Assembly: GCF_029227855.1 (NCBI RefSeq)
Contig: NZ_CP074356.1
Direction: 5' to 3' (one strand)
DNA: 64,000 bases
Origin: Escherichia coli
GTDB lineage: Bacteria > Pseudomonadota > Gammaproteobacteria > Enterobacterales > Enterobacteriaceae
Shown here: in pieces, positions 47,501-50,500 of the stretch
Numbering within the stretch: position 1 is the stretch's first letter
How the letters are laid out: every line of letters starts with the position of its first letter
Program-made: the position numbers

Positions 47501-50500
47501 TGCGCCTGTTACTTGGACTAGGCGGTTCTGCCGCCTTTCCCCGCCCGCTGACCGTTGAAGAACTGCTGGTGGTCACCTTTACCGAGGCTGCCACGGCAGA
47601 ATTGCGCGGTCGTATCCGTAGCAATATCCATGAGTTGCGCATCGCCTGTCTGCGTGAAACCACCGACAATCCACTGTACGAACGCCTGCTGGAAGAGATC
47701 GACGATAAAGCGCAAGCCGCGCAGTGGTTGTTGTTAGCCGAACGGCAGATGGATGAAGCGGCAGTCTTTACTATTCACGGTTTTTGCCAGCGCATGCTCA
47801 ACCTGAATGCCTTTGAATCCGGCATGCTGTTTGAGCAGCAGCTGATTGAAGATGAGTCTCTGCTACGCTACCAGGCCTGCGCCGATTTCTGGCGTCGCCA
47901 CTGCTACCCGCTGCCGCGTGAAATTGCCCAGGTGGTCTTTGAAACCTGGAAAGGGCCGCAGGCGTTGCTGCGCGATATTAATCGTTATCTGCAAGGCGAA
48001 GCACCGGTTATCAAAGCACCGCCGCCCGATGATGAAACGCTGGCTTCCCGCCACGCGCAAATTGTGGCGCGTATCGACGCCGTAAAACAGCAGTGGCGCG
48101 ACGCGGTGGGTGAACTGGATGCGCTGATCGAATCTTCTGGTATTGATCGACGCAAGTTTAACCGTAGCAATCAGGCTAAATGGATCGACAAGATCAGCGC
48201 CTGGGCAGAAGAAGAGACCAACAGTTATCAGTTACCGGAGTCGCTGGAAAAATTCTCTCAGCGTTTCTTAGAAGATCGCACGAAAGCCGGGGGGGAAACC
48301 CCGCGACATCCACTGTTTGAGGCGATCGATCAACTGCTTGCAGAACCATTGTCGATCCGCGATCTGCTGATAACCCGCGCATTGGCTGAGATCCGCGAAA
48401 CAGTAGCGCGTGAAAAACGCCGCCGTGGCGAATTGGGTTTTGATGACATGTTAAGTCGGCTCGATTCCGCGCTGCGTAGCGAAAGCGGCGAGGTGTTGGC
48501 AGCGGCGATCCGTACGCGATTCCCGGTGGCAATGATCGATGAATTTCAGGATACCGACCCCCAGCAGTACCGAATTTTTCGCCGTATCTGGCACCATCAG
48601 CCGGAAGCCGCATTGTTGCTGATTGGCGACCCGAAACAGGCCATATATGCATTCCGGGGTGCGGATATCTTCACTTATATGAAGGCGCGTAGCGAAGTTC
48701 ACGCCCACTACACTTTAGATACCAACTGGCGCTCCGCACCAGGAATGGTGAACAGCGTGAATAAGCTTTTCAGTCAGACTGATGACGCGTTCATGTTTCG
48801 CGAAATTCCTTTTATTCCAGTGAAATCAGCCGGGAAAAATCAGGCGTTACGTTTTGTGTTTAAAGGTGAAACGCAGCCTGCGATGAAAATGTGGCTGATG
48901 GAAGGCGAAAGCTGCGGCGTTGGCGACTATCAAAGTACCATGGCGCAGGTATGTGCTGCGCAAATCCGCGACTGGCTACAAGCCGGACAGCGGGGCGAAG
49001 CGTTGCTGATGAACGGCGACGACGCGCGTCCGGTGCGTGCTTCGGACATCAGTGTGCTGGTGCGCAGCCGCCAGGAGGCCGCCCAGGTGCGCGACGCCTT
49101 AACGTTGCTGGAAATCCCTTCCGTTTACCTTTCGAACCGCGACAGTGTTTTTGAAACTCTGGAAGCGCAGGAAATGCTTTGGTTGTTGCAGGCGGTGATG
49201 ACGCCCGAACGTGAGAACACCCTGCGTAGTGCGCTGGCAACGTCAATGATGGGGCTGAACGCGCTGGATATCGAAACGCTGAACAATGACGAACATGCGT
49301 GGGATGCGGTAGTCGAAGAGTTCGATGGTTATCGGCAAATCTGGCGCAAACGTGGCGTTATGCCGATGCTGCGGGCGCTGATGTCGGCGCGTAACATTGC
49401 TGAAAACTTGCTGGCAACGGCAGGCGGTGAGCGGCGTCTTACCGATATCTTGCATATCAGCGAACTGCTACAAGAAGCCGGAACGCAGCTGGAAAGTGAA
49501 CATGCGCTGGTACGCTGGTTATCGCAACATATCCTCGAGCCAGACAGTAATGCCTCCAGCCAACAAATGCGCCTCGAAAGTGATAAACATCTGGTGCAGA
49601 TTGTCACGATCCATAAATCAAAAGGGCTGGAATATCCGCTGGTTTGGTTGCCATTTATTACCAATTTCCGCGTCCAGGATCAGGCGTTCTATCACGATCG
49701 CCACTCGTTTGAGGCTGTTCTGGATCTTAATGCTGCGCCAGAAAGCGTCGACCTCGCGGAGGCCGAACGTCTGGCGGAAGATCTGCGTTTGCTTTACGTG
49801 GCGCTGACGCGTTCGGTTTGGCATTGCAGTCTCGGCGTTGCACCGCTGGTGCGCCGTCGTGGCGATAAAAAAGGTGACACCGACGTCCACCAAAGTGCGC
49901 TCGGGCGTTTGCTGCAAAAAGGGGAACCGCAAGATGCGGCAGGGCTTCGCACCTGTATTGAAGCGTTATGCGATGATGATATTGCCTGGCAAACGGCACA
50001 AACGGGTGATAACCAGCCCTGGCAGGTTAATGATGCTATAACTGCAGAACTGAATGCGAGGACACTACAACGATTGCCCGGCGATAACTGGCGTGTCACC
50101 AGCTACTCCGGTTTGCAGCAGCGTGGTCACGGTATCGCTCAGGATCTGATGCCACGGCTGGATGTTGATGCCGCAGGCGTGGTCAGCGTCGTTGAAGAAC
50201 CGACGTTAACACCGCATCAGTTCCCGCGCGGTGCGTCACCGGGGACATTCTTGCACAGTTTGTTTGAAGACCTCGATTTTACCCAGCCGGTTGACCCGAA
50301 CTGGGTACAGGAAAAACTGGAACTCGGCGGCTTTGAATCGCAGTGGGAACCGGTGTTGACCGAGTGGATCACGGCTGTCCTCCAGGCACCTCTCAATGAA
50401 ACGGGTGTTAGCCTGAGTCAGCTTTCCGACCGCGATAAACAGGTGGAGATGGAGTTTTACCTGCCGATTAGTGAACCGCTCATCGCCAGCCAGCTTGATG

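What the first reader, a model, noticed from the sequence alone, without database searches (positions are those of the whole stretch)
47565..47572. Chi octamer inside the 5' end of recB, with others in lplT and recD
GCTGGTGG occurs on the plus strand at 47565-47572 (recB), 29849-29856 and 30191-30198 (lplT) and 51725-51732 (recD). Chi is over-represented in E. coli, so this is expected, but a Chi in the gene encoding the Chi-recognising machinery is a small curiosity.
Basis: seen in the sequence. Interest (0 to 1): 0.15.

Follow-up and report, generated by a model that had tools for sequence, protein, structure and literature searches.

The report
Ordinary Chi sites in recBCD genes
The Chi recombination-hotspot octamer inside recB is real, but it is an ordinary by-product of common Leu-Val codons (CTG-GTG) in a leading-strand E. 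coli gene, it occurs at no more than the usual genome density, and nothing links it to the fact that recB encodes part of the enzyme that reads Chi.

Summary
The list was incomplete. The window has seven GCTGGTGG sites, all on the + strand and none on the - strand. The three missed sites are in recC (41476), in ppdA (39619) and upstream of omrB (26256).

The window is E. coli chromosome, running from the ETT2 island through recC-ptrA-recB-recD to fucR. Its + strand is the leading strand of the left replichore, so all seven Chi sites have the canonical orientation.

All six genic sites sit in the frame xxG-CTG-GTG-Gxx (Leu-Val). The recB site encodes helicase motif Ia (LLVVTFTEAAT). The recD site encodes motif II (VLVVDEAS).

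Seven sites is more than a dinucleotide shuffle gives (1.8). It is below the E. coli genome density (13.9 expected for 64 kb, 10.5 for the 48.5 kb core). A gene as long as recB has about a 54% chance of holding a Chi.

The recB site is nearly universal in E. coli (at least 5420 of 5426 genomes) and common in other Enterobacteriaceae (63%). Marinobacter shows the same rate, and neighbouring non-Chi codons of the motif are equally biased.

Verdict: already known, ordinary, low interest.

The parts
47565..47572 (+). Chi octamer in recB, codons 59-62 (ctG CTG GTG Gtc = L-L-V-V of helicase motif Ia, EELLVVTFTEAAT)
   Evidence: It lies inside the Pfam UvrD-helicase domain, aa 15-436. Conserved in K-12 and in at least 5420 of 5426 complete E. 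coli genomes.
41476..41483 (+).
   Evidence: Polymorphic within E. coli: CTG versus TTG, both Leu. Absent in ST131 and three other sampled strains.
51725..51732 (+). Chi octamer in recD (gtG CTG GTG Gta = V-L-V-V of [11 protein letters not shown], helicase motif II / Walker B)
   Evidence: The exact 28-30-mer is present in at least 5348 of 5426 E. coli genomes.
29849..29856 (+). Chi octamer in lplT (acG CTG GTG Ggt, T-L-V-G)
30191..30198 (+). Chi octamer in lplT (tcG CTG GTG Ggc, S-L-V-G)
39619..39626 (+).
26256..26263 (+).
   Evidence: Same position in K-12 (2976416-2976423).
44714..44721 (+). Former Chi in ptrA: GCTGGTAG here (GTA Val), GCTGGTGG in K-12 and ST131
47389..50931 (+). recB coding sequence (host gene of the flagged Chi)
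40964..44332 (+). recC coding sequence
50931..52757 (+). recD coding sequence

Best explanation
These are ordinary E. coli Chi sites. Each genic copy exists because a Leu-Val dipeptide followed by a codon starting with G is written with the most common codons, CTG and GTG, after a codon ending in G. All the host genes are transcribed in the direction of replication. The octamers therefore lie on the leading strand, in the orientation in which RecBCD meets them from the 3' side while resecting back toward oriC from a broken fork or other double-strand end. At such a site RecBCD (RecC reads the 3'-ended strand) switches from degradation to loading RecA. That effect acts in cis on the DNA and does not depend on which gene contains the octamer. 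A Chi inside recB, recC or recD is therefore a coincidence of coding sequence and has no feedback on the enzyme. Shown here: the presence, frame, strand, density and conservation of the sites. Inferred from established knowledge: hotspot activity and the orientation logic.
For: There are seven sites on the + strand and none on the - strand. The window's + strand is the K-12 minus strand at 2.95-2.99 Mb, in the left replichore, and GC skew is positive throughout, so + is the leading strand. All six genic sites are in frame xxG-CTG-GTG-Gxx in + strand genes. This matches the published pattern: 99% of E. coli Chi lie in ORFs, 79% on the coding strand, 68% in the CTG|GTG frame, and CTG|GTG is the fifth most common dicodon (10.1101/2021.07.08.451572). 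Density is at or below background: 7 observed versus 13.9 or 10.5 expected; recB P(at least 1) = 0.54; recB, recC and recD together 3 versus 1.9, P = 0.30. Chi presence tracks synonymous codon choice: the recC site is lost by CTG to TTG in ST131-type strains, and the ptrA site is lost by GTG to GTA in this strain. The cross-species control gives 44 of 70 Enterobacteriaceae and 15 of 23 Marinobacter encoding LLVV as Chi. Non-Chi codons of the same motif (Val4 GTG 0.69 versus 0.42 gene-wide, Thr5 ACC 0.74 versus 0.52, Thr7 ACC 0.80 versus 0.52) show the same excess of preferred codons.
Against: Under a synonymous-codon shuffle, recB, recC and recD together hold 3 Chi where 0.56 are expected (P = 0.014, post hoc). 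The recB site is encoded as Chi in 63% of Enterobacteriaceae species against a naive codon-usage expectation of 16.5%. It also uses the CTG-GTG pair more often than other Leu-Val-G sites in enteric recB genes (48 of 70 versus 18 of 54; Fisher P = 1e-4, not corrected for phylogeny). These excesses match the general, long-known Chi and preferred-codon enrichment in enteric core genes. After scaling for the preceding Leu codon, the genus-level test gives P about 0.10.
Confidence: 0.93

Rival explanations
1. The Chi sites in recB, recC and recD are specifically maintained by selection because they lie in the genes for the Chi-reading enzyme. For example, they might ensure preferential recombinational rescue of this locus, or couple DNA breakage to recBCD gene dosage or expression.
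For: All three subunit genes carry one Chi each in this strain, which has probability about 0.09 at genome density. The synonymous shuffle expects 0.56, P = 0.014. The recB site is present in at least 5420 of 5426 E. coli genomes and the recD site in at least 5348. The recB site is Chi in 63% of Enterobacteriaceae against a naive 16.5%.
Against: The test is post hoc, and the count is not above genome density (P = 0.30). The recC site, in the gene of the true recognition subunit, is polymorphic and absent from ST131-type strains. Marinobacter, for which use of this Chi is not established, shows the same 65%. Non-Chi codons of the motif are equally biased. No mechanism is known by which a Chi in cis would regulate a gene. 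Near-fixation within one species is what a synonymous site in a slowly evolving motif would show anyway.
Confidence: 0.04
2. The octamers are purely coding by-products that are rarely or never used as hotspots at these positions, because local sequence context or transcription makes them inactive.
For: Codon usage alone can account for most of Chi's abundance. All six genic sites are explained by Leu-Val codons.
Against: From established knowledge, any correctly oriented GCTGGTGG is recognised by RecBCD with substantial probability in vitro and in vivo. All seven are correctly oriented for repair of replication-associated breaks. Activity was not measured here.
Confidence: 0.03

Closest known systems
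Canonical E. coli Chi (crossover hotspot instigator) sites, 5'-GCTGGTGG-3', about 1008 per K-12 genome
   Same: Exact octamer, leading-strand polarity, location in ORFs on the coding strand, and the CTG|GTG reading frame. The same seven positions exist in K-12 MG1655.
   Different: Nothing in kind. The only peculiarity is that three of the host genes encode RecBCD itself, which has no known mechanistic consequence.
Codon-usage explanation of Chi abundance (Colbert, Taylor & Smith 1998, as cited and recalculated in 10.1101/2021.07.08.451572)
   Same: Every genic site here is Leu-Val written CTG-GTG. Gain and loss among strains happen by synonymous changes (CTG/TTG in recC, GTG/GTA in ptrA).
   Different: In this window Chi is still about 2.2-fold above a within-gene synonymous shuffle (6 versus 2.7, P about 0.06). 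This fits the rival published view (El Karoui and Halpern type analyses, cited in 10.1101/2020.08.13.249359) that some excess remains beyond codon usage.
Candidate Chi motifs of Enterobacteriaceae (Evolution of Chi motifs in Proteobacteria, 10.1101/2020.08.13.249359)
   Same: GCTGGTGG is reported as conserved, polarised and enriched in the core genome across Enterobacteriaceae. Here the recB site is Chi in 44 of 70 enteric species, and the foreign ETT2 island has none.
   Different: That work is genome-wide statistics. It says nothing about individual sites in the recBCD genes.

Membership tests
E. coli-type Chi site (RecBCD regulatory octamer) | Exact sequence 5'-GCTGGTGG-3' | tested here: met
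   Seven exact matches on the + strand, including 47565-47572. The sequence was read directly.
E. coli-type Chi site (RecBCD regulatory octamer) | The host genome is an enteric bacterium encoding a RecBCD enzyme that recognises this octamer | tested here: met
   The window is 99.99% identical to an E. coli chromosome. Intact recC, recB and recD ORFs carry the expected Pfam domains.
E. coli-type Chi site (RecBCD regulatory octamer) | Orientation: the octamer lies on the strand whose 3' end faces the terminus, so RecBCD moving toward oriC meets it from the 3' side (leading-strand polarity) | tested here: met
   The + strand has positive GC skew across the window. It corresponds to the K-12 minus strand at 2.95-2.99 Mb in the left replichore. 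All 7 of 7 sites are on +.
E. coli-type Chi site (RecBCD regulatory octamer) | Hotspot activity: attenuation of RecBCD nuclease and RecA loading, with stimulation of recombination to the 5' side | not testable with these tools
   This needs genetic crosses, in vitro RecBCD cutting assays or RecA ChIP after a defined break. It is inferred from established properties of the octamer.
Site under Chi-specific selection (as opposed to a coding by-product) | Frequency or conservation beyond the genome background and beyond neighbouring synonymous sites | tested here: not met
   Density is at or below 217 per Mb. Marinobacter gives the same rate. Neighbouring non-Chi codons are equally biased. The genus-level test gives P about 0.10 after scaling. 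No full phylogenetic correction was possible.

The most novel reading that the evidence does not exclude
The Chi formed by the Leu-Leu-Val-Val codons of RecB helicase motif Ia (and perhaps the one in RecD motif II) is kept by selection for the DNA motif itself across Enterobacteriaceae, on top of codon bias. That would make these sites anciently fixed hotspots that protect the recBCD locus. The hints are 63% conservation against 16.5% naive expectation, and a GTG frequency at Val61 of 0.81 against 0.42 gene-wide.
Probability: 0.05. Interest if true: 0.3.

Novelty: already known. Interest (0 to 1): 0.05.

Why it matters
It matters very little. The result confirms on one locus what is already established about Chi in E. 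coli: it is abundant, polarised to the leading strand, sits mostly in the Leu-Val frame of co-oriented genes, is absent from a recently acquired AT-rich island, and is gained and lost by synonymous changes. The one mildly useful by-product is a worked control. A Chi-encoding site in a conserved helicase motif is as frequent in Marinobacter as in enterics, and this shows how easily codon bias at conserved residues can mimic selection for a DNA motif.

Tried and rejected
(1) Special enrichment in the recBCD genes. The synonymous shuffle gave a nominal P = 0.014. I rejected it as post hoc and because the count is not above genome density.

(2) Chi-specific conservation at recB motif Ia. The 63% in Enterobacteriaceae looked striking against the naive 16.5%. 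The Marinobacter control (65%), the equally biased neighbouring codons and the genus-level rescaled test (P about 0.10) remove the signal.

(3) The exact 30-mer megablast count at first suggested the recB site was present in only 84% of genomes. Sampling the rest showed a synonymous GTC to GTG change just outside the octamer. The variant 30-mer accounts for 860 more genomes.

(4) PMC1838430 was read for Chi counts in backbone versus loops, but the passages retrieved did not give them.

(5) The sigma-70 consensus scan found no promoter around the intergenic Chi. Its relation to the omrB promoter therefore rests only on the distance to the Rfam-defined 5' end.

(6) Technical failures: searches were file-name errors, timed out, and one search used an invalid search term.

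Full report
**Observation**

An exact search of both strands finds seven GCTGGTGG octamers. All are on the + strand: 26256, 29849, 30191, 39619, 41476, 47565 and 51725. None is on the - strand.

**What the window is**

Positions 45000-53000 match E. coli chromosomes at 100% identity in the best records, and at 95% or more in every one of the 5425 of 5426 complete genomes that hold a match. The whole window differs at 7 positions from strain JNEC-KY178, NZ_AP045174.1 1018646-1082645.

The gene order is:
- ETT2 type III secretion island (1 to about 15.5 kb, 33-35% GC);
- yqeG-yqeF-kduID-araE-ygeA-lysRA-galR;
- omrB-omrA-IS200C;
- aas-lplT-tas-ygdRQ-mutH-rppH-ptsP-lgt-thyA-ppdAB-ygdB-ppdC;
- recC-ptrA-recB-recD;
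- argA-amiC-metZWV-mltA-tcdA-csdEA-ygdI-gcvA-ygdD-rlmM-fucR.

The missed sites lie in recC, in ppdA, and in the galR-omrB spacer.

**Orientation**

In K-12 MG1655 these genes sit at 2.95-2.99 Mb, with recB, recC and recD on the minus strand. From established knowledge of the K-12 map (oriC near 3.92 Mb, terminus near 1.6 Mb), this is the left replichore. The window's + strand is therefore the leading strand. The uniformly positive GC skew agrees.

All seven sites thus have the canonical polarity. RecBCD resecting from a broken fork back toward oriC would meet each one from its 3' side. Given that 78% of core coding sequence is on + and the published 79% coding-strand preference, about 66% of sites would be expected on +. 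Seven of seven has P about 0.06. That is unremarkable.

**Anatomy**

All six genic sites are in the same reading frame, xxG-CTG-GTG-Gxx, encoding Leu-Val followed by a codon that starts with G.
- In recB the octamer spans codons 59-62 of the peptide EELLVVTFTEAATAEL. This follows the Walker A box ASAGTGKT and lies within the UvrD-helicase domain. From knowledge of SF1 helicases, this is motif Ia.
- In recD it encodes [11 protein letters not shown], the DEAS Walker B / motif II.
- In recC it encodes KALVEY.

This matches the published genome-wide picture: 1008 Chi per 4.64 Mb, 99% in ORFs, 79% on the coding strand, 68% in the CTG|GTG frame, and CTG|GTG the fifth commonest dicodon (10.1101/2021.07.08.451572).

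**Is it more than chance?**

The answer depends on the null model.
- Dinucleotide shuffles give 1.76 +/- 1.24 sites, and none of 100 reached 7.
- Permuting synonymous codons within each gene gives 2.71 + strand sites against 6 observed (P about 0.06). For recB, recC and recD together it gives 0.56 against 3 (P = 0.014, post hoc).
- The relevant background is E. coli itself. At 217 Chi per Mb, 13.9 are expected in 64 kb and 10.5 in the 48.5 kb outside the island, so 7 is at or below average.
- recB alone expects 0.77, so P(at least 1) = 0.54.
- The three genes together expect 1.9, so P(at least 3) = 0.30.
- The chance that all three carry at least one is about 0.09.

**Conservation within E. 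coli**

K-12 has all seven sites, plus an eighth in ptrA.
- recB: the exact 30-mer around the site occurs in 4560 genomes. Sampled genomes that lacked it (ST131 and others) have a synonymous GTC to GTG change just after the octamer. That variant 30-mer occurs in a further 860 genomes. The recB Chi is therefore intact in at least 5420 of 5426 genomes.
- recD: the 30-mer occurs in at least 5348 genomes.
- recC: the site is polymorphic. It occurs in at least 2804 genomes and is lost through CTG to TTG, still Leu, in four of the six sampled genomes, counting the window and K-12.
- ptrA: the site is GCTGGTAG in this strain (GTA Val) but is a Chi in K-12 and ST131.

Chi presence at this locus therefore turns on single synonymous changes.

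**Conservation beyond E. coli**

One scan of species-representative genomes for the back-translated peptide LLVVTFTEAAT returned 120 loci.

| Group | LLVV written as Chi | Expected from recB-wide codon usage |
|---|---|---|
| Enterobacteriaceae | 44 of 70 (63%) | 16.5% |
| Marinobacter | 15 of 23 (65%) | 33% |
| Other taxa | 6 of 27 (22%) | 11% |

So there is an excess at this site. It is not specific to bacteria known to use this Chi, for three reasons.
- The neighbouring motif codons that are not part of the octamer show the same excess of the preferred codon in enterics: Val62 GTG 0.69 against 0.42 gene-wide, Thr63 ACC 0.74 against 0.52, Thr65 ACC 0.80 against 0.52.
- Other Leu-Val-G sites in enteric recB genes are Chi in 24% of cases. 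Scaling for the preceding Leu codon gives about 45% expected. A one-species-per-genus resample gives 59%, P about 0.10.
- The species are not phylogenetically independent: Enterobacter 14 of 16, Kosakonia 6 of 6, Citrobacter 0 of 8.

I read this as preferred-codon enrichment at a highly conserved motif, plus shared ancestry, on top of the general enteric Chi enrichment reported in the literature (10.1101/2020.08.13.249359). I do not read it as selection for a Chi in recB as such.

**Mechanism**

Shown: exact octamers, on the leading strand, in an E. coli genome with intact recC, recB and recD.

Inferred from established RecBCD biology: on encountering one of these sites from the 3' side, RecC binds the octamer in the 3'-ended strand. 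The enzyme then attenuates 3' strand degradation and loads RecA, promoting repair of breaks that arise at higher window coordinates (terminus-proximal). The effect is in cis on DNA and indifferent to the gene that contains it. No route is known by which it would feed back on recB expression.

**Comparison and novelty**

These are members of the canonical E. coli Chi class. The sequence, host enzyme and orientation criteria are met; activity is not testable here. Chi abundance, polarity, ORF and frame bias, and depletion in acquired DNA are all published. Nothing about the sites in recB, recC or recD departs from that. The finding is real but ordinary. Interest is 0.05 and novelty is 'already known'.

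The most novel reading not excluded is motif-level selection keeping the recB motif-Ia Chi across Enterobacteriaceae. I put its probability at about 5%.

Noticed in passing
window 26256-26263 (with OmrB at 26294-26375 and OmrA at 26491-26578): One of the seven Chi sites is intergenic, 31-38 nt upstream of the Rfam-defined 5' end of the sRNA OmrB, on the same strand. It would therefore overlap the -35 region of the omrB promoter. Only about 1% of E. coli Chi sites lie outside ORFs. The same site exists in K-12. The consensus sigma-70 scan found no promoter match there. From my own knowledge, not checked here, omrB transcription is activator (OmpR)-dependent, and that would fit.
   Followed up: partly
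window about 26585-27295 (tnpA 26722-27180; STnc490 Rfam hit 26589-26712): An IS200C element of about 710 bp is inserted between the omrA terminator and aas. K-12 lacks it: the omrA-aas spacer is 87 bp in K-12 and 798 bp here. The Rfam hit STnc490 is the 5' untranslated part of the IS200 element.
   Followed up: partly
window 1-15500: A low-GC (33-35%) ETT2 type III secretion island with apparently intact ORFs: sctS/T/U, eprH-K-like genes, ygeH, ygeG, and an intact 163-aa ORF where K-12 has the ygeF pseudogene. It contains no Chi on either strand in 15.5 kb, as expected for recently acquired AT-rich DNA. The synonymous shuffle expects only 0.26.
   Followed up: partly
window 44714-44721 (ptrA) and 41476-41483 (recC): Chi sites at this locus are polymorphic among E. 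coli lineages through single synonymous changes. The ptrA site is GTG (Chi) in K-12 and ST131 but GTA here. The recC site is CTG (Chi) here and in K-12 but TTG in ST131 and other strains.
   Followed up: yes
window 1-26255 and 51733-64000: There are long Chi-free stretches on both sides of the cluster: 26.3 kb on the left (15.5 kb of it the ETT2 island) and 12.3 kb on the right. The seven sites are packed into 25.5 kb, with spacings of 0.3-9.4 kb.
   Followed up: no
(E. coli genome collection): One of 5426 complete E. coli genomes has no match to the ptrA-recB-recD region. In one other genome the region sits on a record labelled as a plasmid. These may be a deletion and a mislabelled or misassembled replicon.
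   Followed up: no
window, both strands: The one-mismatch Chi relatives proposed as alternative enteric Chi motifs show no strand polarity here: GCTGGCGG 6 on + and 7 on -, GCTGCTGG 10 on + and 6 on -. The true Chi is 7 on + and 0 on -.
   Followed up: no
L008-L127 (Marinobacter loci, e.g. L008 2783-2814): Marinobacter recB genes encode the LLVV of motif Ia as GCTGGTGG in 15 of 23 species, with GTG at the first Val in 22 of 23 against 0.55 gene-wide. Whether Marinobacter RecBCD uses this octamer as Chi is not known to me.
   Followed up: partly
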